From IMG/VR virus record IMGVR_UViG_2671180501_000010: a stretch of 48,383 nt of DNA; one strand, written 5' to 3'. The position numbers and the translations under genes are program-made. Under the pieces are notes generated by a model. The model saw only the letters and a program-made list of their open reading frames with translations. It was not told where the DNA came from and did not search any database. The DNA comes from a virus. Its lineage: Duplodnaviria; Heunggongvirae; Uroviricota; Caudoviricetes. Numbering within the stretch: position 1 is the first letter of the stretch; every line of letters starts with the position of its first letter. Of this stretch, positions 20,401-36,625 are shown piece by piece.

Positions 20401-21787
20401 TGATTTCCATCAGCATTACACTCTGATTTTTTAATTCATCGATCACTTCCTCTGGACGGGAATCCTGATCGATAAATTTCAACGCCTGCAACACCCGAAC
20501 CGCATCAATCTGACGTATATCACCGCCCTGACGCAATGACTGAACAGCCAGCGCGGAGGATGAGTCAAACACCTGGGCAGATACATCCAGTTCAGTGCGC
20601 ACATCCACATTGCCACCGCAACTCTCTCCGATCCATTCCGCCATTATCTGGAGAATATTATCGAGGGCATCTTCGAGGGAGTTCGCCATTGTATAAAGCG
20701 GCGAGTTTTCCTGCATTCGCTCTTCATTAGTCTGATCAACAGATTTGGTGGATGTATTTTCAGCACGCAGAAGTTTAGCGCCGGCATGACGCATCTGATT
20801 TTCCAGCTTCTCAAGTGATGTTTCGCCAGATTCTATCGCTGCGCCACTATGTTCAACATATTCGAGGCCATTTTTTGTTCTGTCCTCAAAAATCGTAGCG
20901 GTGGATGCACCAACCGTCAGTTCTTCATTCCTGTCCAGCCCGTAGGCCACCAGCAATGGAACGCGGGCAACATGAAGAATATTGTCCTGCTCGCTCTGGC
21001 TTTGCCAGTGCTTGATATTCAGCAAGCCAAGATTAAGCAATGGCGGTGTACCACGCATAAATCCTGTTTTCTTCGTGTACAGTGTTACCAGAGGAATATC
21101 ATCACGGCTGGTATTCCATGACTCATGAAGCGTCCAGACAGATTCGCCATTAGTGCCTTCGCTACGTCGATAAATTTCAACTCGACGGGGCATAATATGG
21201 CGGATCTGCTCCACCTTCTTCTGCCCGAAATCATCACCATCAATAATGATGACCTCTTTTATACGCAAATCAGTGAGAACAACTTTCCCTTTTTCAACTT
21301 TCGATTTCCATCCAATAACCTGGCGTGGATTCAGCATCGTAACGTACGGACGACCACCGGTCGCGTTTTCATCGGCTTTTGTCCGAATCTCTTTCATATC
21401 CGTTCGTGGATAGTCCACCAGCGCATGTGCCACACCATACTGAAATGCGAGGCTGAAAAATTGCTGCGCCCACACATCCAGTCGGCTCCCCTCCATGTCG
21501 ATATTTTCTGCATATTCCCTGATTTTTGCCGGCGTTTCCTCACTCAATACTGTCGGCTCTGCAAATATGCGCCCAATATTTTGCTTGATGCTTTCTTCAT
21601 ACACAGGAAGTAGCGTAGCCACAGACAGGCGTTTTTTATAAGCGTCTTCATCTTCGTTAGGCCATTTTGGGAGATAATTTTCCCCCTGCCTGCGCATTTC
21701 AAGCGTACCGCCCATCAGTGCGTCGTTAATATCCCACGCCTCCAGCATATCGTTATAGTCGAGGTTGGGTGTTGATATATCAGCCAT
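20381..21787 (-). CDS. Portal protein
   Basis: 468-aa ORF directly downstream of the large terminase gene; acidic C-terminus. Confidence 0.6.
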   Translation of the reverse strand: MADISTPNLDYNDMLEAWDINDALMGGTLEMRRQGENYLPKWPNEDEDAYKKRLSVATLLPVYEESIKQNIGRIFAEPTVLSEETPAKIREYAENIDMEGSRLDVWAQQFFSLAFQYGVAHALVDYPRTDMKEIRTKADENATGGRPYVTMLNPRQVIGWKSKVEKGKVVLTDLRIKEVIIIDGDDFGQKKVEQIRHIMPRRVEIYRRSEGTNGESVWTLHESWNTSRDDIPLVTLYTKKTGFMRGTPPLLNLGLLNIKHWQSQSEQDNILHVARVPLLVAYGLDRNEELTVGASTATIFEDRTKNGLEYVEHSGAAIESGETSLEKLENQMRHAGAKLLRAENTSTKSVDQTNEERMQENSPLYTMANSLEDALDNILQIMAEWIGESCGGNVDVRTELDVSAQVFDSSSALAVQSLRQGGDIRQIDAVRVLQALKFIDQDSRPEEVIDELKNQSVMLMEINDANRE

Positions 21788-21789
21788 AA

Positions 21790-23100
21790 TTAAATCCGAA
21801 GTGATGTGACTCTTCCGGTCGGTTTGACAATAGGGAATTGCTTAACGATGAAATAACCTCCGGCATCATTCGGGTGATCATTGCCAGATTTTTTATCAGG
21901 CTCCCCCTTCTCATCCCAGACCTGTTGCTCCAGAGATTCGGCATATAACGGGCAACGCTTCACATTAACTTTATAGCGACGCTCACCATTGGCATTGCAG
22001 AACATTGCATTCATTGAGTTAACGCGATCTTTTACTGGCGGGTTCGAGCTGTTCACCACAACGTTAAAACCAGCCTGCTTAAGCTGGGCTATATCCGTCG
22101 TACTTGCGTTACTTGATTTTCTGGAATCCCCGGAAGCATCTGGATAAATATAAATTTCCCTCACTTTCCGGTAATCATTCCCATCATACAGCCAGAAGCG
22201 TTCTTTAATGATGCGGATCATATCCGGCGTATCGTAGGCATTGATGATTTCAGTTACCGCACATGGAAGCCCCAAACGCAGCACATGGACGATTCCCGCC
22301 ATCTTTCCAACGTTAAAATCCATCCCAATATAAATCGGCTCCCCTGGCTGCTCCACTTCTTCGCAATTATTCAGTTTCCGGTCAAACTGATGGTAAACAG
22401 TACCACTTGTCAGGTTAGTAAACTGTCCTCGAAGATAGGCTTTAATCAGCTCTGGAGGGTATGATTCAAGAAGCGAAGGAATGTAATCTGCTGGCAGGTT
22501 CTTTTCATTATCGAAAGTAGATGCCTGCACCAGACCATACAGTGAGGCCAGCTCTGTTTTTTCACGCACGGCTTTAACAAACTGCTCGTAGACAAATTTG
22601 AATCCTTCCGGCGTGGTTGTAACGTCAATACCGTTGCGAAGTCCATCAATCTTATAACGCATACGTGCAATTATCTTGCGCCACGCCGTTCTGGCTTTTT
22701 CCTTCGGCAAAATGTCCAGTTCATCCACCAACGCATTACCAATTTTGAAACCGACGATCGTTTGTGGCTTCTCCATCGATCTGCAGATAGTGGTTCCCCG
22801 ATACTGGCGTCCGTAATAAAAGTGAACCTCTTTATTTCCCTCATTAATTTTTACGTTCAATCCCCAGTCAGCAGCAACTTCTTCCACTGTAGGGTAAAAA
22901 ATATCGCGAATTTGGGGATACGTTGGCGCAAAATATCCCTGATTTATACCTGGATGCTCCCAAATCCCCTTGCATATGCCGCCACACCCAACCCATGTTT
23001 TGCCCGAGCCAAAACCAGCAATATAGGCTTTAAATTTATGGGGCATTGAAAGAAATCGCGCCTGAGGCACATTAAGCGTCGGAGAGATCATCTTCATCAC
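21790..23100 (-). CDS. Terminase large subunit
   Basis: 436-aa ORF with Walker A-like YIAGFGSGKT near the N-terminus and acidic residues consistent with a nuclease domain; follows the small subunit gene. Confidence 0.65.
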   Translation of the reverse strand: MMKMISPTLNVPQARFLSMPHKFKAYIAGFGSGKTWVGCGGICKGIWEHPGINQGYFAPTYPQIRDIFYPTVEEVAADWGLNVKINEGNKEVHFYYGRQYRGTTICRSMEKPQTIVGFKIGNALVDELDILPKEKARTAWRKIIARMRYKIDGLRNGIDVTTTPEGFKFVYEQFVKAVREKTELASLYGLVQASTFDNEKNLPADYIPSLLESYPPELIKAYLRGQFTNLTSGTVYHQFDRKLNNCEEVEQPGEPIYIGMDFNVGKMAGIVHVLRLGLPCAVTEIINAYDTPDMIRIIKERFWLYDGNDYRKVREIYIYPDASGDSRKSSNASTTDIAQLKQAGFNVVVNSSNPPVKDRVNSMNAMFCNANGERRYKVNVKRCPLYAESLEQQVWDEKGEPDKKSGNDHPNDAGGYFIVKQFPIVKPTGRVTSLRI

Positions 23101-24166
23101 TCCTTACTCTGGCATCAACCACATTAATATTGATCGCCACAGGCTGGGGATGTTCATTATCTTCCACCGTTTCGATCTCTTTGCGCAGCTTCTGGTTTTC
23201 CATTCTGCGCCGTTCAATTTCCAGTTCCCGTAGCCGCTTATCTGCACATAAAGCCCCGCCAGCAGAAAACAAACGCAACAATTCACGCCGGGCGGCAGCC
23301 TTATCCTCCAGCAGGATCTCAACGCCGAATTTTCCGAATTTTGCCCCTGCATATAATTGCCGCGCATCCCCATCAAGCAGAGTGGTATCAGCCATATAAA
23401 GCTGTCCCGTTCCCTCACCGCAGCACTTCGGGCAGTCCGGATTGGGTATGGCGTTATCAACAAAGCCGAGGCCTCCATATTCCGGTTCGGGTTTGCCATC
23501 TCTGGAAGCCTGCGCCGCTGCCTTGTCGAATTCTGCTATATCGCGCCACTGGTAGAGATGATTCTCGCCCCAGCAATAACGGCAGTTAACACGGCGAAAT
23601 TGTGCAAGCTGATTGGGGTCGGCCAGGACAATAGCCATCAACTGACTCACTAGTAAATCCAGGTCTGCGGTATAGCGTTTCTGGTACTGATTGCGGAAGT
23701 AGCTGATAGCGCGAAAAACCCTGGCATTTCTAAGCATACGACTGGCGTTGCTGTTAGCTGTCGCACCTTGCCCCTCATAACCGGCTAGTCGGTACGCCTC
23801 TGTCGGCTTTTTACCCTGAGCAACAAGCATCGCAAACTTAGCCTGCTGGTCAGAAATGCCGAATTCATCGGGACAGAACGAAAATTCCTCCGCGTCGCCC
23901 TCATTCAGGCCCGCATCGAATACTGGCTTTTTTTCCTGAGATTTTTCGTTCCGCTTTTGTGCAGTCTGCGCAGATTTTTTCTGCGCACTTTTTTGCGCAG
24001 TTTTGCACATTTCTGTCTGCGCATTTTTCGGAGTTTTTTTGATGTAACGACGGGCTGTTGCGTAATTCAGTCCCCTTGCTTCACACCATGCCACCGGAGA
24101 TATACCGGAGCGGGTGTATTCAGCAATATACTCCTGCTGCAACGCCCCCCAGTCCGGTCTGCTCAT
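23072..24166 (-). CDS. Terminase small subunit (HTH N-terminus plus Terminase_2-like segment)
   Basis: Segment QQAKFAMLVAQGKKPTEAYRLAGYEGQGATANSNASRMLRNARV resembles small-terminase family motifs; immediately upstream of TerL. Confidence 0.5.
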   Translation of the reverse strand: MSRPDWGALQQEYIAEYTRSGISPVAWCEARGLNYATARRYIKKTPKNAQTEMCKTAQKSAQKKSAQTAQKRNEKSQEKKPVFDAGLNEGDAEEFSFCPDEFGISDQQAKFAMLVAQGKKPTEAYRLAGYEGQGATANSNASRMLRNARVFRAISYFRNQYQKRYTADLDLLVSQLMAIVLADPNQLAQFRRVNCRYCWGENHLYQWRDIAEFDKAAAQASRDGKPEPEYGGLGFVDNAIPNPDCPKCCGEGTGQLYMADTTLLDGDARQLYAGAKFGKFGVEILLEDKAAARRELLRLFSAGGALCADKRLRELEIERRRMENQKLRKEIETVEDNEHPQPVAININVVDARVRSDEDDLSDA

Positions 24167-24169
24167 CAG

Positions 24170-24421
24170 TTAGTCCTGATTTTTATCCACCCTGAGTAGT
24201 TCGCGCAGAGCAAAGGCATCCCCTTTTCTGGCAAGCTTAAACAATGCCGCTCGTAACTCGGCTTCACCTTTCGCTCTGCCCTTACGGATGGCCGCATAAA
24301 AATCTGTCATTGCTTCCCGATTTTCTTTCAGTCGGTTCAGATCAACATCCAGAACGTCAGCGATTTGTTGTGCAGTCATCCGGCACGCTGCCAGAGACTC
24401 GACTTTCGAATACGGAATCAT
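24170..24421 (-). CDS. Small helix-turn-helix protein (83 aa), function unknown
   Basis: ORF with TAQQIADVLDVDLNRLKENR HTH-like segment; overlaps the 3' end of the upstream ORF, so coding status is uncertain. Confidence 0.3.
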   Translation of the reverse strand: MIPYSKVESLAACRMTAQQIADVLDVDLNRLKENREAMTDFYAAIRKGRAKGEAELRAALFKLARKGDAFALRELLRVDKNQD

Positions 24422-25307
24422 TTGTCACCCCCATTGATATGCAGGGTGTCTTCTTCCTGTATTTTTCGTGAAGGATTTTTACTGCAGCGTTGTTCCAGGT
24501 GACCTGATGGTGAATGCGTTTATGACTGGCACCCATAAGTGAGATTTTTACGCACGACGGCGCATACATGACGGAGTAAAAACTTTTAACGTAGGTTCCG
24601 GAATCCAGATACAGCTCGGTCATTCCGCCGCTGTTTTTCTGCGTCTGTTTCTGCCCTAACTGGACAGCACCGATCGTCATAAACAATTCACCACAGCGAC
24701 CGAGATTCGTGTACGTATTCACATCCTCGTTAATGCGCCCCATGAATGAGAACGGTCGATCAACCGAACAGATAAAGCTGTTCATTGCCTTGCGTTTCAC
24801 CCACGAAGCATGGCCGCCATTGTCACCAAGAAAATCCCCGCCCTGCGACATAGCGATGGAAAGAGCAGGTATTGATTCGTAGTACGCAAGCATTTCAGAA
24901 AGGATCTCATCCAGTTTCCTTATCGGGAAATAGGCCTGGTCATAGTTGCGATCCACCCGAAACTGGAACTCGTGATAATCATCATCGAGCTGAATGAAGT
25001 ATTTACACCCGACCAGTTTTGCCTGGTCGAAACAGGCATTACGGGCGTAAAAAATTGAGCGGCGGTCACTAAAATTATCGGCTTCGTCAAAACGACTAGC
25101 AATATCGGCTTTGGAAAATACCAGCACCTGTTCACCAAATTCAGCCATGTACTGATGCCGTGTCTTATCTTCATCATCAACAACGATAAAAATTTTCCCG
25201 GTATAGCCAGCACGACGCAACGTCCGGTAAGTCAGAACTTTGTCCGGTCGCCCGTGAGTCAGAATAAAGGCGCAAAAATCATCACGCATATTCCTCCTCC
25301 CCGCCAT
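24357..25307 (-). CDS. Hypothetical protein with GT-A-fold glycosyltransferase-like motifs
   Basis: 316-aa ORF; N-terminal FILTHGRPDKV…IFIVVDDEDK and later FIQLDDDYHEF (DxD-like) resemble family-2 glycosyltransferase signatures; pattern recognition only. Confidence 0.35.
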   Translation of the reverse strand: MAGRRNMRDDFCAFILTHGRPDKVLTYRTLRRAGYTGKIFIVVDDEDKTRHQYMAEFGEQVLVFSKADIASRFDEADNFSDRRSIFYARNACFDQAKLVGCKYFIQLDDDYHEFQFRVDRNYDQAYFPIRKLDEILSEMLAYYESIPALSIAMSQGGDFLGDNGGHASWVKRKAMNSFICSVDRPFSFMGRINEDVNTYTNLGRCGELFMTIGAVQLGQKQTQKNSGGMTELYLDSGTYVKSFYSVMYAPSCVKISLMGASHKRIHHQVTWNNAAVKILHEKYRKKTPCISMGVTNDSVFESRVSGSVPDDCTTNR

Positions 25308-26070
25308 GCATGATCTCCACCATGCGCTGCGTCATTCGGACAAATCCATTTTCAATAGCCTGCTGATAATCAATGATCACCAGCGCCGACTCCTCGAAAA
25401 GGCACTGAATTTCAGCGGGGGCATGAGCGTAATAGTCCGCAATTCTGCTGAAATTAAACACCGTGTGACGTTCTGCTGCACACAGGAGGAATTTCTCAAT
25501 ATCAGGATCAAGGGACGCCGAACGTATCCGGCTGATCAGCTCCTGAGTTTTCGTATCGTCGTACAGTTCACTGATATCCGGTTTACCGCCTGACGGCTCA
25601 TAAACAGGCGTATCAATTTTCGTCGTATACGGCTCCTCCTCATTTCCTGTACCGGGCAAAACATCCGTCAACAGTTCATCAATTTCTGCCGGGATGAAGC
25701 CTGTCAGGGAGACATCAAAATCAGCATTGATTAGGTCCGACAGCTCCATCCGCAACAGATCTTCATCCCAGCCAGCATTCATCGGCAGGCGATTATCTGC
25801 CAGGCGGTACGCCTTTTTCTGCTCATCCGTCAGGCCAGACAGAACAATGACCGGAACAGAATCCATTTTGAGCATTTCAGCCGCCATAACACGACCGTGA
25901 CCCGCAATAATTTCGCCCTTTTCGTCAATCAGCACCGGATTAGTCCAGCCGAATTGCTTAATACTTTCTACCAGTTGTGCCACCTGCTCAGTACTGTGCG
26001 TCCTGGCGTTGTGCGCATACGGTGACAATTCTTGTAATGGGCGATAGACTATCTTTAATTTCTCGCTCAT
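25282..26070 (-). CDS. ParB-like nuclease domain protein
   Basis: N-terminal ParB/Srx-like signature (LSPYAHNARTHS…GWTNPVLIDEKGEIIAGHGRVMAAEML…VPVIVL); C-terminal 160 aa unassigned. Confidence 0.7.
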   Translation of the reverse strand: MSEKLKIVYRPLQELSPYAHNARTHSTEQVAQLVESIKQFGWTNPVLIDEKGEIIAGHGRVMAAEMLKMDSVPVIVLSGLTDEQKKAYRLADNRLPMNAGWDEDLLRMELSDLINADFDVSLTGFIPAEIDELLTDVLPGTGNEEEPYTTKIDTPVYEPSGGKPDISELYDDTKTQELISRIRSASLDPDIEKFLLCAAERHTVFNFSRIADYYAHAPAEIQCLFEESALVIIDYQQAIENGFVRMTQRMVEIMHGGEEEYA

Positions 26071-26207
26071 ACAGCCTTGCTTTATGAATAAAACGCACCC
26101 CAGCAGCCAGTGCTACTGGGGGCGGAGGTGTTGCTGGTAAAGTTAGGTATTGGATCAATGAGTGAGTCAACATAATATTAAACTCACAATTATAAATCAG
26201 CCATATA

Positions 26208-27665
26208 TTAGGAGCGCCAAAAAAAACCTGAAAACAATATAATAACAGGATAAATTTCAAGGCGACCAAGAATCATAGCTATGCACATTAAATATTTTGC
26301 AATGTCATTAAGCACTCCGAATGACGATGCAGTAGCCCCAAAACCTAATCCCATATTATTAATACATGCAGCCACTGTTGCAAATGATGTAAGAAAATCA
26401 TATCCCATACCATTTAACACCAGTATAAAAAACACCGTGAAGAGAGTATAAAGAAAAAAGAAACTCCATACAGACCTCATTACACGATCTGTAACTATCT
26501 TCCCTCCTACATTTACACTCAACAACGCTCTGGGATGAGAAAGCTGATTTATCTCGTGTTTGCTTTGTTTGAAAAGTATAAGAAATCGAAGTGACTTAAT
26601 TCCACCACAGGTTGAACCTATACATCCCCCAAAGAAACTTGACAACAGCAAAAACACTATCGTGTGCGTGGGCCAGTTTGCATAATCCTGCGTAGCTAAA
26701 CCATTATCAGTGAGCATGGAGCTGGCAAGAAAAAACGAATGAATAAAACTTCCATGCAAGTCATACATACCTATATGCCAGACCTGGAAAGAGGTAACAA
26801 TGATCACCCCTAAGGCTATTAACAGAAAGAAACGAAGTTCAATATCTCTGATTAAAGGTTTTATCGTTTTTCTGCTAATAACAATATACCAAAGAGTGAA
26901 GTTGAAAGCCGATAGCAGGGAAAAAGAACCAGCCACCAGCTCAACCAAATAGTTATTAAAATATCCGATACTCTCGCTATGAGTTGAGAAACCACCAAGC
27001 GAAACTGTGGAAATCCCGTGACAAATAGCATCAAACAAAGGCATTCCTGCAAGTCTATAACAGACAATACAAGCAATACCTAATAAAGAATAAGTTATCC
27101 ACAGTGTCCGTGACGTATCGGCCAGGCGGGGAGTGAGTTTGTCATCCTTAAATGGCCCCGGCATTTCTGACTGATAAAGCTTTGCACCACCAATACCCAA
27201 TAATGGCAATACTGCAACCGCCAGAACAATAACTCCTAAACCACCTATAAAATTTAACTGTGACCGATAGTACAAATATGCCCGAGGTAATGAACTAACA
27301 TCATCAATTACAGTTGCTCCTGTTGTTGTTATTCCAGAAACCCCTTCAAACAGAGCATCAATGAACGTTAAATTAAGTTCTGAGTCAATCCATAAAGGGA
27401 ATGCACTAATAACAGAAAACAAAATCCAAAACATTACAATTATAATAAACCCATCACGGGTACGTAATTGAATGCCAGATTTCTTAGTTGTATACCACGC
27501 TCCGCCACCAATGCAAAAAAATATAACGAAAGTTATAAAGAAAACGAACAGGCTTTTTTCTTTATAAAACAATGCTACAACCATTGGTGGCAACATTGAA
27601 AGACTATAGAGCCAAACCAGGAACCCACACATATGAGTAACAACTCTTACATGAGATGTATTCAT
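26208..27665 (-). CDS. trkG: Trk-system potassium uptake protein TrkG
   Basis: 485 aa from ATG 27665 (MNTSHVRVVTHMCGFLVWLYS…), matching recalled K-12 TrkG; polytopic membrane protein; markedly AT-rich gene. Confidence 0.9.
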   Translation of the reverse strand: MNTSHVRVVTHMCGFLVWLYSLSMLPPMVVALFYKEKSLFVFFITFVIFFCIGGGAWYTTKKSGIQLRTRDGFIIIVMFWILFSVISAFPLWIDSELNLTFIDALFEGVSGITTTGATVIDDVSSLPRAYLYYRSQLNFIGGLGVIVLAVAVLPLLGIGGAKLYQSEMPGPFKDDKLTPRLADTSRTLWITYSLLGIACIVCYRLAGMPLFDAICHGISTVSLGGFSTHSESIGYFNNYLVELVAGSFSLLSAFNFTLWYIVISRKTIKPLIRDIELRFFLLIALGVIIVTSFQVWHIGMYDLHGSFIHSFFLASSMLTDNGLATQDYANWPTHTIVFLLLSSFFGGCIGSTCGGIKSLRFLILFKQSKHEINQLSHPRALLSVNVGGKIVTDRVMRSVWSFFFLYTLFTVFFILVLNGMGYDFLTSFATVAACINNMGLGFGATASSFGVLNDIAKYLMCIAMILGRLEIYPVIILFSGFFWRS

Positions 27666-27802
27666 ATCTAAATATTCTTTCAATTATAACCACCTTGCTG
27701 CAATATTATGATTATACTGTATAAAATTTAACTCCTCTTAGATCTTACTTCACTGTTCCTTATGAAACAATCATCAAAATGAATCATATTGTAGTTAAGA
27801 TT

Positions 27803-29227: not shown

Positions 29228-29623
29228 CTAACCTCGCATGTCAAAGCCAGATTTCTGAAAATCTCTGTAGACTTCCGGATTGTTGAAGGCCGGAAATTTG
29301 GCTTTATGAGCTGCGGACTTTATCGCTTCGCAATAGGCTTTATCACCGTTACTGGTAGATATTTTTAACGCCGTGCCATCCTGAGAGAATTCCATATGCA
29401 ACCTGCATTTTTTCCCTTTCCAGTTATGCGGCTCATCAAGTTTGGCATTAATTGCAGCTCTGATTCCCCGCGCTTGCGCCCCCCATTCATCCTGATCATC
29501 CCAGCGTCCTGAACTGCAACTACCTGTAGCAGTAGTTTTGTGGCAATCTGAAGGGTGTAAAGGTGTGCATCCCGCAACAAAACCGACCCAAAAAGTCAAC
29601 ATAACGATTTTCTTTAATCCCAC
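29228..29623 (-). CDS. Lipoprotein with TolA C-terminal (domain III)-like domain, paralogue 1
   Basis: GTG start at 29623 with GAGGAG RBS; signal peptide plus lipobox (FVAGC); C-terminal region (…KGKKCRLHMEFSQDGTALKIS…YCEAIKSAAHKAKFPAFNNPEVYRDFQKSGFD) parallels TolA domain III. Confidence 0.7.
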   Translation of the reverse strand: MGLKKIVMLTFWVGFVAGCTPLHPSDCHKTTATGSCSSGRWDDQDEWGAQARGIRAAINAKLDEPHNWKGKKCRLHMEFSQDGTALKISTSNGDKAYCEAIKSAAHKAKFPAFNNPEVYRDFQKSGFDMRG

Positions 29624-29773: not shown

Positions 29774-30202
29774 TCAGGGTTTAAAATCCAGCACCCCATT
29801 TTGAAATACTTTATATACTTCCGGCGAAGGGGGGGCAGGTATATCAGCATTCTTTATCGCATTCATCGCTTCACGACATAAATCGAGGTCTCCACTTTCT
29901 CTTTTAACCTCCAGTAGAAGGCCATTCGGGGCCATATGCATTCTCAGTGTACACTCTTTTCCTGAATACTTACTCGCATCCCCGAACTGTTTTTCGATGG
30001 CGCTCTTGATTTGATGGGCATACAGACGGATATCCTCACTAACATCAGAAGTACGTTCAGATGAACTCACATACTGTGTCTCTATTGCTTTATCGGAGTA
30101 ATATGATGTACGGTCATGATAATTTGTCGATACAGCATCAGTGCACCCGATAATAATCCCACTAATAATCAACGTAAGAATTGATGCGCTACGAAAACCC
30201 AT
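29774..30202 (-). CDS. Lipoprotein with TolA C-terminal (domain III)-like domain, paralogue 2
   Basis: ATG 30202 with GAGGAAAA RBS; lipobox (IIGC); C-terminus YAHQIKSAIEKQFGDASKYSGKECTLRMHMAPNGLLLEVKRESGDLDLCREAMNAIKNADIPAPPSPEVYKVFQNGVLDFKP closely parallels recalled E. coli TolA C-terminus. Confidence 0.75.
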   Translation of the reverse strand: MGFRSASILTLIISGIIIGCTDAVSTNYHDRTSYYSDKAIETQYVSSSERTSDVSEDIRLYAHQIKSAIEKQFGDASKYSGKECTLRMHMAPNGLLLEVKRESGDLDLCREAMNAIKNADIPAPPSPEVYKVFQNGVLDFKP

Positions 30203-34447: not shown

Positions 34448-35449
34448 TTAGTAATCTGCGTGTTTCGCACTTTTCAGAAATGCTTTCATATTTTCATTAG
34501 GTCGCTCAATTTCGAAGTTACTTCCATATAACTCTTGTAATTTTGGCCATAACTTACTTAATAACCCTCTCCTGCGATAAAATGGATGTATCCAAACGGT
34601 AGATAGGTACGGAGAATTTGCATTTGAATTGTTTATTGTGACCAGCCCAACTAAACATTGTCGATAACCACTATTATCCATTGATTGTATTTCTTCGACG
34701 AATGGATACGCGATTACATCAGTCCAACCATGATCGGTTGTATCCCATTGCATTCCGTCATGACATTCCTTCGACTGATAGCGGCGTAAAGCTACACACG
34801 CGAGCTTTTGCCAATCTGGAGAATTAATTGTGATCTCTTCATCGTATGACGCGCCTATTGGAGCGGGTATTGGTCTGATTAATCCAGCATGGCATTCATC
34901 ATAGAACTTCATGTTTCCCTCAGAAACGTTGTGTACGTTGGGTTGCTCCATGTGTGCGCCATTCAAAAATAGCTCTGATAGTAGTGTATCTACACTGTAA
35001 TCTTTATTGATTATTGTCGGCTTAGAGTTTTTCTTATTAAGGCCGCGAGTAACGATTTTTTGATCAATGTTAACAACATGGAATAATCCGTCGGGGAGGC
35101 TAGCGAACCACGATGGGGCATCGGACCAGAATAGCATGCCTTTTGTACTTCTTAAGAGTTTAATTAAGTTAATACAAGCTTCTTCACTAGTCTTGCCGTT
35201 GATGCGAAGTATGTTAGGACTAAAGTAATATTCATCCATATCAGGGAATGCAGCTTCGCAAAACTCCTGTACATAATTTAGCACCTGGATTCTACAGAGA
35301 TCATCATAGCTGGTAATAACTAAGGGGGTATCTTCATTACTATTATGATTATCAATAATGCAATCTATAGCGAGACTTACTGCTTTGCGTATCACTTCAG
35401 TTGAATCTAACGACTCTAAAAATTTTGTCTTTCGTGTGCGAATATCCAT
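34448..35449 (-). CDS. Hypothetical protein (333 aa) with GNAT-acetyltransferase-like C-terminal region; second gene of a two-gene cargo operon
   Basis: ATG 35449 lies 15 nt after the stop of the upstream gene; C-terminal YLSTVWIHPFYRRRGLLSKLW resembles GNAT motif A; N-terminal 230 aa unassigned; about 35% GC. Confidence 0.7.
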   Translation of the reverse strand: MDIRTRKTKFLESLDSTEVIRKAVSLAIDCIIDNHNSNEDTPLVITSYDDLCRIQVLNYVQEFCEAAFPDMDEYYFSPNILRINGKTSEEACINLIKLLRSTKGMLFWSDAPSWFASLPDGLFHVVNIDQKIVTRGLNKKNSKPTIINKDYSVDTLLSELFLNGAHMEQPNVHNVSEGNMKFYDECHAGLIRPIPAPIGASYDEEITINSPDWQKLACVALRRYQSKECHDGMQWDTTDHGWTDVIAYPFVEEIQSMDNSGYRQCLVGLVTINNSNANSPYLSTVWIHPFYRRRGLLSKLWPKLQELYGSNFEIERPNENMKAFLKSAKHADY

Positions 35450-35464
35450 GTATGACCTGCGCTA

Positions 35465-36487
35465 TTAAAATTCATGAATGAACGGTTTGTCATCTGGTTG
35501 CAAAATGGTGGTTTTATTCGTTGCTACATTTAAACTGTTGTAGAGCATAATTGCCAGGTTCGATGCATTTTCAATCAGCGTTTCAAGATCCTGGTCTGTA
35601 ATCACTACGAGGTTCCCTTCTTTATCCTTTCCACCACGATGCACTAAGTGATTTCGATTGAGGGTTGCCAATTCAATAGCTTCTATCGGACAGTCTTTTT
35701 GTACTTTTATATCGAATGTAGCTTCATAGCGGTCGATTACCTTTTTAGTGCTATGCCAGCTTGCACTGATCAAGTGTTCCTTGATTGACCTGATTAGCTC
35801 TCCCCTAATTTTCTCGATGGGTTCACCCTTGAAAGGCAACGCAGCAATATCTTTGCTTACTTTAAATTCAGTCTTACCTTTTTCTATACAATTGGCTATG
35901 TAGACATCATCTTTCTCTATAGAATTAATGAATAGCTCAACATAAAGCGTTTCCAAAGCTGTAATAACATTCGTGTAGAGCAAACTAAGCAAGTGGTTTT
36001 TTTGCTGTTGTTCAGTTTTATCTTTTGCAAGTTTTTTTATTTTATCGATATTATCAATGAATTTTAAATACGGATTACCGGAAGACGTTACAGCGTCGTA
36101 GATATCATCATCGTACCAATCATCTATATTATTTGAGTTTCCAGACCAGTCAAAACATTGTGTTTGTAATTCATCTACTAATTCCTCAATATACTCAGAT
36201 TTAACATATTGACCGAAGATGGATTGTAGTTCTTCGCTCGCATCATACGGCCCGCCATATATGTAAGCATAGCCACCTTCTCTACTTTCATACGGACAAG
36301 CATTTGCCGGATCTTCAAAGTTTTCAAAGAACCAGTTTTTCATTACTTCGAGTTGATCTTTTTTGCTTATGTATTTTAAAGATTTTAGTGGAACTTTCTT
36401 TCCATTAACCTCGAAAACAATTTTCACGATGTAACGCTCCCTTGTATCAATTGCGCAACTATTATACCACAGCGAAATACAGGGCAT
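35465..36487 (-). CDS. Hypothetical protein (340 aa) with C-terminal R-N-x3-H (HEPN-like) motif; first gene of a two-gene cargo operon
   Basis: ATG 36487 preceded by AAGGAGG RBS (track ORF extends to 36556 but lacks an RBS); motif LNRNHLVHRGG at residues 277-287; AT-rich; candidate TTGACA -35 upstream. Confidence 0.7.
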   Translation of the reverse strand: MPCISLWYNSCAIDTRERYIVKIVFEVNGKKVPLKSLKYISKKDQLEVMKNWFFENFEDPANACPYESREGGYAYIYGGPYDASEELQSIFGQYVKSEYIEELVDELQTQCFDWSGNSNNIDDWYDDDIYDAVTSSGNPYLKFIDNIDKIKKLAKDKTEQQQKNHLLSLLYTNVITALETLYVELFINSIEKDDVYIANCIEKGKTEFKVSKDIAALPFKGEPIEKIRGELIRSIKEHLISASWHSTKKVIDRYEATFDIKVQKDCPIEAIELATLNRNHLVHRGGKDKEGNLVVITDQDLETLIENASNLAIMLYNSLNVATNKTTILQPDDKPFIHEF

Positions 36488-36625
36488 AACCTGCCTCCTT
36501 AAACTAACATACCATGAGCCAGCAATGTCCGCTATTGGCACAAAGCGGACAACCACGCTAGCTCTCCCCTGTGCCAGAAAAATGTCAATTTACATATGAA
36601 CTAATGCTCTTTGATCTAGTAACGT

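What the first reader, a model, noticed from the sequence alone, without database searches (positions are those of the whole stretch)
24357..26070. GT-A-like and ParB-like gene pair between trkG and the terminase genes
A 316-aa ORF with glycosyltransferase-family-2-like signatures (IFIVVDDEDK, FIQLDDDYHEF) overlaps the end of a ParB/Srx-domain protein whose C-terminal 160 aa are unassigned. Neither is a standard morphogenetic gene. ParB-domain proteins beside terminase genes are common in phages but poorly understood, and a sugar-transferase-like partner raises the possibility of DNA or surface modification.
Basis: inference. Interest (0 to 1): 0.5.

Follow-up and report, generated by a model that had tools for sequence, protein, structure and literature searches.

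The report
Clamp-tethered orphan DNA-type glycosyltransferase pair
An intact Rac-type E. coli prophage carries, just ahead of its DNA-packaging genes, a sugar-transferase of the phage DNA-glycosylating family together with a dedicated ParB-like partner that probably holds it on DNA, yet the phage has no enzyme to make the hydroxymethylated bases such transferases normally decorate, so what it sugar-coats is an open and easily testable question.

Summary
On the minus strand of an intact Rac-like prophage, a 262-aa ParB-like gene (25282-26070, full-length YnaK) is translationally coupled to a 310-aa glycosyltransferase (24357-25289) and followed by terS/terL.

The transferase belongs to Pfam TAGT (PF20691), the DNA-base glycosyltransferase family. 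It has a GT-A fold and an invariant R…DDD…ED motif.

The "unassigned" C-terminus of the ParB protein is a conserved ~115-aa domain with no Pfam match, and it is the obligate partner of this TAGT clade:
- 86 of 88 GT loci carry it, across many bacterial phyla and an archaeal virus.
- 78 of 80 loci with the domain carry the GT.

The domain comes in two forms:
- Fused to a ParB CTPase-fold domain, the pair sits directly upstream of terminases of four Pfam families.
- Stand-alone (~131 aa), it sits among replisome genes and starts with MKQxNLF, the beta-clamp-binding pentapeptide (113/120).

I infer an adaptor that tethers the transferase to a DNA sliding clamp, so the target is DNA.

No TET/JBP dioxygenase or hydroxymethylase is found in the window or in the complete phage c5, and none recurs among the neighbours. 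The acceptor is therefore unknown. I rate this a new variant of a known kind, of moderately high interest.

The parts
25282..26070 (-). Partner protein (full-length YnaK, 262 aa). It comprises a ParB CTPase-fold domain plus helix-helix segment, a disordered linker, and a conserved C-terminal domain.
   Evidence: - ORF found.
- PF02195 ParB_N.
- phrog_620 at 1.7e-90.
- PGAP names the gene ynaK.
25663..26070 (-). ParB nucleotide-binding domain plus helix-helix segment (residues 1-136). Conserved residues are N21, H25, S36, G57-H58-G59-R60 and D92-N93. This is the same module as the N-terminus of phage ParB-DNA-methyltransferase fusions.
   Evidence: - phrog_498 'DNA methyltransferase' at 6.1e-51 over residues 3-141.
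- PADLOC MTase_II at 1.5e-38 over residues 10-144.
- Invariant columns listed.
25561..25662 (-). Predicted disordered linker (residues 137-170) that carries the conserved peptide PYTxKIDTPVYEPS (general form YTxKIxxPxYEP).
   Evidence: - pLDDT is below 50 for residues 137-170.
- The motif is conserved from E. coli to Lactobacillus, Nocardia, Vibrio and Haloarcula viruses.
25285..25560 (-). Conserved helical C-terminal domain (residues 171-262) with no Pfam family. With the linker motif it forms the ~115-aa unit that always accompanies this glycosyltransferase clade. Invariant residues are R201, H202, E226, S228 and D234.
   Evidence: - 1195 clusters at 50% identity.
- Stand-alone ~131-aa versions exist.
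- Co-occurrence with the GT is shown.
24357..25289 (-). TAGT-family GT-A glycosyltransferase (310 aa; alternative upstream ATG at 25307). Catalytic motif: R14, D102-D103-D104, E188-D189. The conserved C-terminal region contains H260-H261. About the last 25 aa are an enterobacterial extension.
   Evidence: - PF20691 at 4.1e-34.
- phrog_842 at 8e-104.
- BFVD top hits are TAGT proteins.
25282..25300 (-). Translational-coupling junction. It comprises the Shine-Dalgarno GGAGGAGG (25300-25293), the GT start ATG (25289-25287) and the overlapping partner stop TGA (25284-25282).
   Evidence: - Read directly from the sequence.
- Overlapping stop/start junctions are the rule in other loci.
24170..24421 (-). 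Small ORF (69 aa from ATG 24379 as PGAP calls it, or 83 aa) between the GT and terS. It resembles a piece of a small terminase subunit and belongs to the context, not to the pair proper.
   Evidence: - phrog_309 at 8.3e-23.
- Annotated.
- An 85-aa counterpart occurs in the Pantoea and Serratia loci.
21790..24166 (-). terS (23072-24166) and terL (21790-23100). This is the packaging module that the ParB-fused form of the pair always precedes.
   Evidence: - Terminase_2, Terminase_6N and Terminase_6C hits.
- 59-60 of 66 loci have a TerL as the first large ORF downstream.

Best explanation
The two genes encode a self-contained, late-expressed DNA-directed glycosylation module.

**The enzyme.** The 310-aa protein is a metal-dependent GT-A glycosyltransferase of the TAGT family. 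It uses a host nucleotide-sugar, most simply UDP-glucose.

**The partner.** The 262-aa partner is not a partition protein. It is an adaptor.
- Its conserved C-terminal unit (the linker peptide YTxKIxxPxYEP plus the helical domain) binds the transferase.
- Its N-terminal ParB CTPase-fold domain provides a nucleotide-switched, DNA-encircling clamp that keeps the enzyme on double-stranded DNA.
- In other phages the same C-terminal unit lacks the ParB domain. It instead begins with a beta-clamp-binding peptide and is encoded beside the replisome. The common logic is 'glycosyltransferase tethered to a sliding clamp'.

**In this prophage.** The pair is translationally coupled and lies in the late operon directly before terS/terL. 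It would therefore act on replicated concatemeric phage DNA just before or during packaging. The likely benefit is protection of the injected genome from host nucleases.

**Shown versus inferred.**
- Shown here: family membership, fold, intact catalytic residues, obligate co-occurrence of the two proteins, the two alternative clamp-related N-termini, and the genomic contexts.
- Inferred: physical binding of the partner to the GT, clamp function, DNA as the target, the sugar donor and the biological benefit.
- Unknown: the acceptor atom. The phage encodes no 5-methylpyrimidine dioxygenase or hydroxymethylase, so the acceptor cannot be the 5hmC/5hmU used by characterised DNA-acting relatives.
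For: **The GT belongs to a DNA-glycosylating family and looks active**
- PF20691 TAGT at 118.8 bits.
- PHROG 842.
- The nearest viral predicted structures are TAGT proteins.
- R14, the DDD motif and D189 are invariant from E. coli to Porphyromonas and Haloarcula viruses, and E188 is kept or replaced by D. This matches the R…DDD…ED motif of experimentally active phage DNA GT-A enzymes (bioRxiv 10.1101/2023.12.21.572611).
- Characterised TAGT relatives glycosylate DNA: the T2/T6 enzyme (PMC13216743) and 5mYOX-linked GTs.

**The partnership is obligate**
- Among 88 GT loci from many phyla, 86 have the partner gene. The 2 exceptions are cut by a contig end.
- In 82 of them the partner directly abuts or overlaps the GT.
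- In 80 loci found through the C-terminal domain, 78 contain the GT.
- Stand-alone ~131-aa partners exist.

**Both partner forms point to a DNA clamp**
- The ParB-fused form has the same architecture (NBD, helix-helix, unstructured linker, CTD, no HTH) as the ParB proteins that activate phage thymine dioxygenases on dsDNA (PMC13229309).
- Its NBD is the module found at the N-terminus of ParB-DNA-methyltransferase fusions: phrog_498 at 6e-51 and PADLOC MTase_II at 1.5e-38.
- The stand-alone form starts with Qxx[LMI]F in 25 of 50 distinct proteins, against 7 of 3359 control ORFs, and in 113 of 120 database proteins, typically MKQINLFG. This is the bacterial beta-clamp-binding pentapeptide (consensus QL[SD]LF, from my own knowledge).
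- Those loci encode PolA, a beta clamp, clamp loader, primase and helicase next to the pair.
- There is a precedent: T4 alpha-glucosyltransferase co-purifies with the gp45 sliding clamp (PMC13216743).

**Context**
- The first large downstream ORF is a terminase large subunit in 59-60 of 66 loci, spread over four different Pfam TerL families.
- In cos phage c5 the pair is the first gene pair after cos.

**A universal substrate is implied**
- The GT is 40-60% identical across bacterial phyla and an archaeal virus.
Against: - No hydroxylated base is available. There is no TET/JBP enzyme or hydroxymethylase in the window (PGAP annotation of the near-identical prophage; Pfam scan of its hypothetical ORFs). 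None is present in the complete 31.8-kb phage c5.
- None recurs among 300 neighbouring proteins or in Pfam-annotated flanks.
- No glycosyltransferase is known to glycosylate a canonical DNA base.
- A eukaryotic member of the family, GREB1, glycosylates a protein rather than DNA (PMC7968844).
- The partner is strongly acidic (pI 4.5) and has no recognisable DNA-binding domain.
- In the 5mYOX system, mutating the predicted NTP-binding residues of ParB did not abolish activation, so a clamp mechanism is unproven even there.
- Both AF2 models are only moderately confident (pLDDT 71 and 66), and no complex model could be made.
- The clamp-binding reading of MKQxNLF rests on motif identity and context only.
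Confidence: 0.5

Rival explanations
1. Protein glycosylation. The transferase glycosylates its own partner, for example an invariant Tyr or Ser/Thr in the disordered YTxKIxxPxYEP peptide in a glycogenin-like way, or another DNA-bound or packaging protein. The clamp-tethered glycoprotein, not glycosylated DNA, would then be the functional product.
For: - GREB1, a TAGT-family domain, O-GlcNAcylates a protein (PMC7968844).
- The partner carries a very conserved Tyr/Thr-rich peptide in a predicted disordered segment.
- An invariant peptide co-inherited with the enzyme would also explain the very high cross-phylum conservation.
- This reading removes the missing-acceptor problem.
Against: - No single hydroxyl residue of the peptide is invariant. 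The Thr position is Ala in L158 and P0334. In the Porphyromonas phage the first Tyr is Phe and the second Tyr is Ile.
- Tandem arrays of 2-3 TAGT paralogues resemble stepwise glycan building on DNA as described for phage pathways.
- Tethering to sliding clamps and fusion of the same NBD to DNA methyltransferases point to DNA.
Confidence: 0.2
2. Conventional acceptor, supplied elsewhere or absent. The clade glycosylates 5hmC/5hmU or an already glycosylated base, as other DNA-acting TAGTs do. In large phages a hydroxymethylase elsewhere in the genome supplies the acceptor. In small temperate phages such as this Rac-type prophage the pair would be idle cargo, or would act only on foreign hydroxymethylated DNA.
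For: - All characterised DNA-acting relatives use hydroxymethyl-pyrimidine-derived acceptors.
- Stand-alone-partner loci lie in phages with their own PolA and replisome. Such phages often use modified dNTPs (my own knowledge), and only +/-6-10 kb of those contigs was examined.
- Four of about 60 ParB-type loci carry a C5-cytosine methylase nearby.
Against: - Both proteins are strongly conserved, with intact catalytic residues, in many small phages that use host replication and have no hydroxylase: the window, c5, jlb1 and HHTV-2.
- The pair is intact in hundreds of E. coli genomes: 867 genomes cover at least 80% of the 2.2-kb query, at 95-100% identity for almost all matching records.
- No TET_JBP or thymidylate-synthase-like family appeared among the listed families, which were the top 25 of 81 and of 88 families found, or in the annotated flanks.
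Confidence: 0.1
3. Packaging accessory. The ParB-like protein marks or cleaves DNA near pac/cos for the terminase (a 'ParB-like nuclease'), and the GT-like protein is a structural or regulatory partner without a sugar-transfer role on DNA.
For: - The pair is almost invariably adjacent to terS/terL in the ParB-fused form, across four terminase families.
- It is the first gene pair after cos in phage c5.
- In Nocardia phage NTR1 the pair directly precedes terL with no annotated terS.
- Iyer et al. 2013 proposed that ParB directs modification machinery during packaging (as cited in PMC8256090).
Against: - The same GT plus C-terminal domain occurs without the ParB domain in replication modules far from terminases.
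- The GT catalytic residues are invariant, which is not expected of a purely structural role.
- Independence from terminase family and from packaging strategy (cos or headful) argues against a specific mechanistic role in packaging.
Confidence: 0.07
4. Lysogenic conversion of the cell surface. The transferase modifies LPS, teichoic acid or another envelope glycan of the lysogen.
For: - Prophage glycosyltransferases commonly do this.
Against: - The pair is conserved at 40-60% identity in viruses of hosts with unrelated envelopes, including a haloarchaeon.
- It sits in the late or replication modules, not next to att/int.
- It has ParB or clamp-binding partners.
- No GtrA/GtrC-type genes were noted beside it in the annotation.
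- It is present in apparently virulent phages.
Confidence: 0.03

Closest known systems
TAGT family (Pfam PF20691): T2/T6 beta-glucosyl-HMC-alpha-glucosyltransferase, 5mYOX/TET-associated phage GT-A DNA glycosyltransferases, kinetoplastid base-J glucosyltransferase, GREB1 C-terminal domain
   Same: - The Pfam model is matched far above its threshold.
- The fold is GT-A.
- The R…DDD…ED active-site motif is present.
- The gene is phage-encoded and lies next to DNA-metabolism genes.
   Different: - It is distant from the T-even enzyme: BFVD rank 23, 12% identity, and not found by tblastn.
- No hydroxymethylpyrimidine-producing enzyme accompanies it.
- It has an obligate small partner domain that I did not find described for the characterised members in the papers I could read.
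- Its acceptor is unknown.
ParB-like activators of phage thymine dioxygenases (ParB-dependent 5mYOX subclass; O'Toole et al. 2026, PMC13229309)
   Same: - The architecture is the same: ParB NBD, a short helix-helix segment, a 35-50-aa unstructured linker and a C-terminal domain, with no HTH DNA-binding domain.
- The pattern of nucleotide-binding residues is the same (N-x-R, S, GxxR, N).
- It is a separate polypeptide encoded next to a post-replicative DNA-modifying enzyme and often near terminases.
   Different: - The partner enzyme here is a glycosyltransferase, not a dioxygenase.
- The linker here carries a strongly conserved peptide, whereas theirs is described as non-conserved.
- The C-terminal domain here also exists as a stand-alone protein with a clamp-binding peptide.
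- Sequence relatedness of the two C-terminal domains could not be tested because their sequences are not held.
Phage ParB-N / DNA methyltransferase fusion proteins (PHROG 498; PADLOC MTase_II model)
   Same: - The N-terminal 140 residues are clearly homologous (6.1e-51; 1.5e-38).
- These fusions have the same typical location in late regions near terminase genes (my own knowledge, and the discussion of fusions in PMC12704722).
   Different: - The modifying enzyme is covalently fused in those proteins.
- Here it is a separate glycosyltransferase, recruited (by inference) through the C-terminal domain.
T4 alpha-glucosyltransferase bound to the gp45 sliding clamp
   Same: It is a phage DNA glycosyltransferase physically associated with a sliding clamp, so that DNA is modified as it is made (PMC13216743).
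   Different: - The T4 enzyme has a GT-B fold and binds the clamp directly.
- Its acceptor is 5hmC, made pre-replicatively.
- Here the fold is GT-A, tethering is through an adaptor protein, and clamp binding is inferred from a motif only.
Canonical ParB/Spo0J partition proteins
   Different: - No ParA gene was seen next to it.
- There is no HTH parS-binding domain.
- TIGR00180 scores below its cut-off (38.1 against 58.45).
- The gene is located in a phage late operon.

Membership tests
TAGT (PF20691) DNA-base glycosyltransferases | Match to the family profile above the curated threshold | tested here: met
   - PF20691 scores 118.8 bits against a cut-off of 27.5, E 4.1e-34, over residues 14-228.
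- phrog_842 at 8e-104.
- PGAP names it 'GREB1-related protein'.
TAGT (PF20691) DNA-base glycosyltransferases | GT-A (Rossmann-like, DxD) fold | tested here: met
   - In the AF2 model the N-terminal 150 residues have pLDDT mostly above 85.
- BFVD top hits are TAGT proteins, E 4e-23.
TAGT (PF20691) DNA-base glycosyltransferases | Catalytic motif R…DDD…ED(Y/F) as in experimentally active phage GT-A DNA glycosyltransferases | tested here: met
   - R14, D102-D104 and D189 are invariant in 13 sequences spanning E. coli to Porphyromonas and Haloarcula viruses. E188 is kept or replaced by D.
TAGT (PF20691) DNA-base glycosyltransferases | Genomic association with an enzyme that creates the hydroxymethyl acceptor (TET/JBP-type 5mYOX, or dCMP/dUMP hydroxymethylase), or with a first glucosyltransferase | tested here: not met
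   - None in the window.
- None in complete phage c5.
- None among the listed families of 300 neighbouring proteins from about 85 loci. Only the 25 commonest families are listed per scan, so rare singletons could be missed.
- None in the Pfam-annotated flanks.
TAGT (PF20691) DNA-base glycosyltransferases | Transfers a sugar to a DNA base | not testable with these tools
   This requires nucleoside LC-MS of phage DNA or an in vitro assay.
ParB-like activators of post-replicative DNA-modifying enzymes (5mYOX-associated ParB) | NBD + helix-helix + unstructured linker + CTD, with no HTH DNA-binding domain | tested here: met
   - In the AF2 model the NBD and helix-helix segment cover residues 1-135, the segment at pLDDT below 50 covers 137-170, and the helical CTD covers 172-254.
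- The reference architecture is described.
ParB-like activators of post-replicative DNA-modifying enzymes (5mYOX-associated ParB) | Encoded next to, and required by, a 5-methylpyrimidine dioxygenase | tested here: not met
   - The adjacent enzyme is a TAGT glycosyltransferase in 82 of 86 loci.
- No dioxygenase was found.
ParB-like activators of post-replicative DNA-modifying enzymes (5mYOX-associated ParB) | Conserved NTP-binding residues of the ParB NBD | tested here: inconclusive
   - N21, S36, G57, G59, R60, D92 and N93 are invariant among 38 homologues, but R23 varies.
- CTP binding cannot be tested here.
- The equivalent residues were dispensable in the 5mYOX system.
Canonical ParABS partition ParB | ParA partner gene, HTH parS-binding domain, and a TIGR00180 match above cut-off | tested here: not met
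   - No ParA gene was noted in the flanking annotation.
- No HTH domain appears in the model.
- TIGR00180 scores 38.1 bits against a cut-off of 58.45.
Beta-clamp-binding proteins (QL[SD]LF-type motif), for the stand-alone form of the partner | Terminal Qxx[LMI]F pentapeptide | tested here: met
   - 25 of 50 distinct stand-alone partners carry it, against 7 of 3359 control ORFs.
- 113 of 120 database members carry it, with position-wise consensus M-K-Q-I-N-L-F-G.
- The window protein itself lacks the motif and has the ParB domain instead.
Beta-clamp-binding proteins (QL[SD]LF-type motif), for the stand-alone form of the partner | Physical binding to the clamp's hydrophobic cleft | not testable with these tools
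   There is contextual support only: a clamp-like ORF lies in 20 loci next to the pair.
Gtr-type seroconversion glycosyltransferases | GT2 bactoprenol glucosyltransferase with GtrA flippase and GtrC, near the prophage att site | tested here: not met
   - There is no PF00535-type hit; the only Pfam family is TAGT.
- The neighbours are trkG, the ParB-like gene and the terminase genes.
- The pair is conserved in archaeal and Gram-positive viruses.

The most novel reading that the evidence does not exclude
This widespread clade of clamp-tethered TAGT glycosyltransferases attaches a sugar directly to DNA that contains no hydroxymethylated base. The acceptor would be a canonical base or another DNA group, with the conserved partner domain contributing to acceptor recognition or activation. 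That would be a previously undescribed type of DNA modification. It would be made by temperate phages of E. coli, lactobacilli, Bacteroidota and haloarchaea, and it would be present as a prophage function in roughly one in six to one in three complete E. coli genomes.
Probability: 0.25. Interest if true: 0.9.

Novelty: new variant of a known kind. Interest (0 to 1): 0.62.

Why it matters
Phage DNA glycosylation is a classic counter-defence, but every known case starts from a hydroxymethylated (or hydroxylated) pyrimidine.

Recent surveys noted that many phage GT-A/TAGT genes are 'solitary' and left them unexplained:
- 288 of 753 phages carry solitary TAGT homologues (PMC13216743).
- About 65% of GT-containing contigs have no neighbouring 5mYOX or thymidylate-synthase-type enzyme (bioRxiv 10.1101/2023.12.21.572611).

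This analysis organises a large part of that dark matter into one two-protein module with three features:
- a dedicated partner domain that Pfam does not describe;
- two interchangeable ways of riding on DNA, either a ParB CTPase-fold domain or a beta-clamp-binding peptide;
- no acceptor-making enzyme.

The module also sits in an experimentally ideal place. Inducible Rac-type prophages of E. coli carry it, and the K-12 Rac remnant has lost the transferase. Two cloned genes plus nucleoside mass spectrometry would therefore show whether a new DNA (or protein) modification exists.

If DNA is modified, this bears on restriction evasion, on sequencing and epigenome artefacts in E. coli phage DNA, and on how ParB-fold switches have been reused beyond chromosome segregation.

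Tried and rejected
- **Hidden dioxygenase or hydroxymethylase in the prophage.** I scanned the ten unannotated or poorly annotated ORFs with Pfam and checked the PGAP annotation of the near-identical prophage. I found none.
- **Recurrent third gene.** Pfam summaries of 150 upstream neighbours of ParB-type loci and 150 neighbours of stand-alone-type loci showed no recurrent TET_JBP or thymidylate-synthase-like family. They showed only terminases or replisome genes. The tool lists only the 25 commonest families, so rare singletons could be hidden.
- **Identity of the C-terminal domain.**
  - A profile search of PDB sequences gave only chance hits to designed armadillo repeats.
  - Pfam gave only a weak, sub-threshold but recurrent hit to PF23887 'Phage L5 gene 47-like' (10 of 21 members, best E 0.004). 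I leave that unexplained.
- **Defence-system membership.** PADLOC had no model for the GT. For the ParB protein it matched only the N-terminal part of a methyltransferase model.
- **Literature limits.**
  - Iyer et al. 2013, which named TAGT and proposed ParB-directed modification, is not held. Its ideas are cited second-hand.
  - The supplements of O'Toole et al. are not held, so their ParB and 5mYOX sequences could not be compared.
  - A search for DNA-modification data on halovirus HHTV-2 found nothing relevant.
- **Structure search.** The afdb50 library, needed to test similarity to base-J glucosyltransferase, was unavailable.
- **First viral-contig scan.** The scan with the E. coli GT returned almost only near-identical Rac-type prophages and was uninformative for diversity.
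- **parS-like repeats around the pair.** Only short, chance-level repeats were found, plus a coding repeat inside terS.
- **3'-OH or 5'-phosphate glycosylation of DNA ends.** I considered this and set it aside, because it would block cos ligation in the cos phages that carry the pair (c5, lambda-type GpA terminase loci).

Full report
**1. What is in the window**

The window is an intact Rac-type lambdoid prophage of E. coli. The 2.2 kb around the finding is 100% identical to chromosomes of several E. coli strains. It is present, at least in part, in 1619 of 5426 complete genomes, and 867 of these cover at least 80% of it. It is also 98.6-98.7% identical to ten phage records, nine Escherichia and one Salmonella.

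The minus-strand gene order is as follows:
- lysis genes;
- trkG (27683..26208), a low-GC moron with its own terminator-like hairpin at 26121..26098;
- a 262-aa ParB-like gene (26070..25282), which PGAP names ynaK;
- a glycosyltransferase (25289..24357);
- a small HTH-like ORF (24379/24421..24170);
- terS (24166..23072), terL (23100..21790) and the portal gene.

However, a strong GGAGGAGG precedes the ATG at 25289. That start overlaps the ParB stop in ATGCGTGA and is the start PGAP uses. The two genes are therefore translationally coupled.

**2. The glycosyltransferase**

- The only Pfam hit is PF20691, 'TET-associated glycosyltransferase' (TAGT), at 118.8 bits against a cut-off of 27.5.
- PHROG 842, which carries the T-even annotation beta-glucosyl-HMC-alpha-glucosyltransferase, matches at 8e-104.
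- PGAP calls the protein 'GREB1-related protein'.
- An AlphaFold2 model built on 40 homologues has mean pLDDT 71, with pLDDT mostly above 85 in the N-terminal 150 residues.
- Against predicted viral structures the best hits are TAGT-domain proteins (E 4e-23). A T-even-type enzyme appears only at rank 23 with 12% identity.
- R14, D102-D104, D189, K167 and H260-H261 are invariant in an alignment spanning E. coli, Nocardia, Lactobacillus, Vibrio, Porphyromonas and Haloarcula viruses. E188 is kept or replaced by D.
- This corresponds to the R…DDD…ED motif of experimentally active phage GT-A DNA glycosyltransferases (bioRxiv 10.1101/2023.12.21.572611).

The enzyme looks catalytically competent.

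**3. The ParB-like protein**

- Residues 137-170 are predicted disordered.
- Residues 172-254 form a helical domain with no structural or sequence match.
- The protein is not a partition ParB. TIGR00180 is below cut-off, there is no HTH domain, and no ParA gene was noted nearby.
- Residues 3-144 are strongly similar to the N-terminal module of phage ParB-DNA-methyltransferase fusions: phrog_498 at 6.1e-51 and PADLOC MTase_II at 1.5e-38.
- The overall architecture (NBD, helix-helix, unstructured linker, CTD, no DNA-binding domain) is the one described for the ParB-like proteins that activate phage thymine dioxygenases on double-stranded DNA (PMC13229309).

**4. The pair is an obligate, widely distributed module**

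Homologues of the GT are very numerous: all 8000 scored candidates passed E <= 0.001 in the 90%-identity cluster database.

Cultured viruses carrying the pair include Lactobacillus phages c5, LL-Ku, phiLdb, Ld17 and phi jlb1, Nocardia phage NTR1, Porphyromonas phages, 190-kb Vibrio phages and the haloarchaeal virus HHTV-2.

A scan of one genome per species returned 80 loci. They came from Proteobacteria, Bacteroidota, Firmicutes, Planctomycetota, Verrucomicrobiota, Acidobacteriota, Saccharibacteria, Ignavibacteria, Kiritimatiellae and an archaeon, with the GT 45-60% identical to the E. coli protein.

Using HMMs built from my alignments, I found:
- 86 of 88 loci with a GT ORF carry the partner gene, and the two exceptions are cut by a contig end;
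- in 82 of them the partner directly abuts or overlaps the GT start.

Conversely, of 80 viral contigs retrieved through the C-terminal domain alone, 78 contain the GT: 66 directly downstream and the rest within 2.5 kb.

**5. The 'unassigned' C-terminus is the specific partner domain**

Domain-level matching showed that in about ten of the genome loci the upstream gene is only 128-155 aa. It corresponds to residues ~140-260 of the E. coli protein, with no ParB domain.

The conserved unit consists of:
- the peptide YTxKIxxPxYEP;
- a helical domain with the pattern FL..AA.RH..F.Y..IA(D/E)YY…Q.L(M/F)E.SALVI(I/V)D…AI..G(F/Y).

Y157, R201, H202, E226, S228 and D234 (E. coli numbering) are invariant in a 21-sequence alignment.

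A phmmer search of 1.84 billion representative proteins found 1195 clusters at 50% identity. The domain is always C-terminal, in proteins of either ~255-300 aa or ~130-160 aa. A profile search found 6462 clusters at 90% identity. The best 120 are all ~131-aa proteins with no Pfam domain and no name.

**6. Two contexts, one logic**

*ParB-fused partner.* The first large ORF downstream of the GT is a terminase large subunit in 59-60 of 66 loci. These spread over four Pfam families: Terminase_6N 30, Terminase_3 19, TerL_ATPase 6 and GpA_ATPase 4. In cos phage c5 the pair is the first gene pair after cos.

*Stand-alone partner.* The pair typically lies in a replication module: PolA, an optional second TAGT, the partner, the TAGT, then a beta-clamp-like protein. 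Clamp loader, primase, helicase, RecA and RecU lie nearby, and 20 loci have a clamp-like ORF.

These stand-alone partners begin with Qxx[LMI]F:
- 25 of 50 distinct proteins in my loci, against 7 of 3359 other ORFs;
- 113 of 120 database proteins, with position-wise consensus M-K-Q-I-N-L-F-G and one exact QLSLF.

This is the bacterial beta-clamp-binding pentapeptide (consensus QL[SD]LF, from my own knowledge). Most of the remaining proteins have degenerate xxLF N-termini, often in phages that encode their own clamp.

I therefore infer that the partner is an adaptor joining the transferase to a DNA-encircling clamp. The clamp is either the replicative clamp, reached through a clamp-binding peptide, or a ParB CTPase-fold domain carried by the adaptor itself.

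T4 alpha-glucosyltransferase co-purifying with the gp45 clamp is a precedent (PMC13216743). The same ParB module fused to DNA methyltransferases is a parallel. This is the strongest argument that the target is DNA.

**7. The missing acceptor**

All characterised DNA-acting relatives glycosylate 5hmC, 5hmU or a sugar already attached to them. I found no means of making such bases:
- The prophage has no TET/JBP-type dioxygenase and no hydroxymethylase (PGAP annotation; Pfam scan of hypothetical ORFs).
- The complete 31.8-kb genome of phage c5, which uses host replication, has none.
- Among 300 neighbouring proteins of at least 150 aa from about 85 loci, no TET_JBP or thymidylate-synthase-like family appeared among the listed families.
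- None appears in five Pfam-annotated metagenomic flanks.

Published surveys had already noted solitary TAGTs without explaining them (PMC13216743; bioRxiv 10.1101/2023.12.21.572611).

Either this clade uses an acceptor not yet known in DNA, or it glycosylates a protein. GREB1 shows the family can do the latter (PMC7968844).

The conserved Tyr/Thr-rich peptide of the partner is a conceivable acceptor. However, no hydroxyl residue in it is strictly invariant:
- the Thr position is Ala in two sequences;
- the Tyr positions are Phe and Ile in the Porphyromonas phage.

**8. Verdict**

DNA modification is the better of the two proposed functions, and surface modification is unlikely.

The gene families themselves are known. 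A loose association of GTs, ParBs and terminases in dioxygenase neighbourhoods has been published. Iyer et al. 2013 had proposed ParB-directed modification during packaging (cited).

As far as I could find, the following are not described:
- the dedicated partner domain;
- its two clamp-related forms;
- the systematic absence of an acceptor-making enzyme.

I rate it a new variant of a known kind with interest 0.62.

My probability split is:

| Reading | Probability |
|---|---|
| Clamp-tethered DNA glycosylation module | 0.5 |
| Protein glycosylation | 0.2 |
| Conventional hm-base acceptor supplied elsewhere, or idle cargo | 0.1 |
| Packaging accessory | 0.07 |
| Surface conversion | 0.03 |
| Something else | the remainder |

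Part of the 0.5 for DNA glycosylation is the novel case of direct modification of non-hydroxymethylated DNA, which I put at 0.25 overall.

**9. Limits**

- Both structure models are of moderate confidence, and no complex could be modelled.
- The Pfam neighbour summaries list only the 25 commonest families.
- Only +/-6-10 kb of the larger phage contigs was examined.
- Clamp binding, GT-partner binding, the sugar donor and the acceptor are all inferences.
- Iyer et al. 2013 and the supplementary sequences of O'Toole et al. 2026 could not be read.

Noticed in passing
window 26208-27683 (-) and 26098-26121 (-): trkG is a low-GC (0.39) moron inserted between the lysis genes and the ParB/GT pair. 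A GC-rich hairpin followed by a T-run lies between its stop codon and the ParB start. This looks like the moron's own terminator, which Q-antiterminated late transcripts would have to read through to reach the pair.
   Followed up: partly
window 29228-29623 (-) and 29774-30202 (-): Two paralogous small proteins with TolA C-terminal domains (PF06519, E 1e-14 and 2e-23) lie just upstream, in the direction of transcription, of the lysis genes. They are possibly decoys for TolA-dependent colicins or filamentous phages.
   Followed up: no
window 34448-35449 (-) and 35465-36556 (-): A low-GC two-gene island (333 and 363 aa) gives only weak GNAT and HEPN/RES N-terminal-domain hits and nothing in PADLOC. 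In strain EC2 one of the two genes is frameshifted. It is a candidate uncharacterised moron or defence pair.
   Followed up: partly
window 23942-24032 (inside terS, 23072-24166 -): Four closely spaced copies of a ~12-nt direct repeat (TTTTTCTGCGCA on the plus strand), with a fifth weaker copy at 24634. They encode a reiterated AQK(K)S peptide near the N-terminus of the small terminase. This could be pac-related or simply low complexity.
   Followed up: no
window 24170-24421 (-): A small ORF (69-83 aa) resembles an internal piece of small terminase subunits (phrog_309, 8e-23). It overlaps the 3' end of the GT gene. The E. coli GT carries a ~25-aa C-terminal extension, absent from most homologues, across this overlap. 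An 85-aa counterpart exists in the Pantoea and Serratia loci.
   Followed up: partly
L001 (NZ_CP058571.1) 21714-21971, equivalent to window 25813-26070: On DNA 100% identical to the window, PGAP annotates ynaK as a pseudogene 'missing C-terminus', although the 262-aa ORF is intact. This is probably an artefact of naming against the truncated 87-aa K-12 YnaK. It hides the C-terminal partner domain from annotation-based surveys.
   Followed up: partly
alignment A6 (partner C-terminal domain), e.g. window 25285-25662 (-): Ten of 21 members give a weak, sub-threshold hit (best E 0.004) to Pfam PF23887 'Phage L5 gene 47-like protein' over ~20 residues around the RH..F.Y..IA.YY helix. This may be a remote relationship or chance.
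   Followed up: no
L174, L181, L182, L183, L185, L192, L194 (viral contigs) and L122, L158: PolA-type phage loci carry two or three tandem TAGT paralogues, and some carry two copies of the partner domain, between the DNA polymerase and the sliding-clamp gene. This suggests stepwise building of a di- or trisaccharide.
   Followed up: partly
neighbour sets A5 and A8 (loci L092-L252): MobA-like NTP-transferase / IspD-like hits recur near the pair (2-3 members per set). One locus set also gave single hits to NTP_transferase, an NAD-dependent epimerase and GDP-mannose dehydratase. These are either phage-encoded sugar-nucleotide synthesis for the transferase or further divergent GT-A-like proteins.
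   Followed up: no
L008 (Nocardia phage NTR1) 3-3408: The ParB-like gene and the GT directly precede terL with no annotated small terminase gene between them. This raises the question of whether the ParB-like protein substitutes for TerS in that phage.
   Followed up: no
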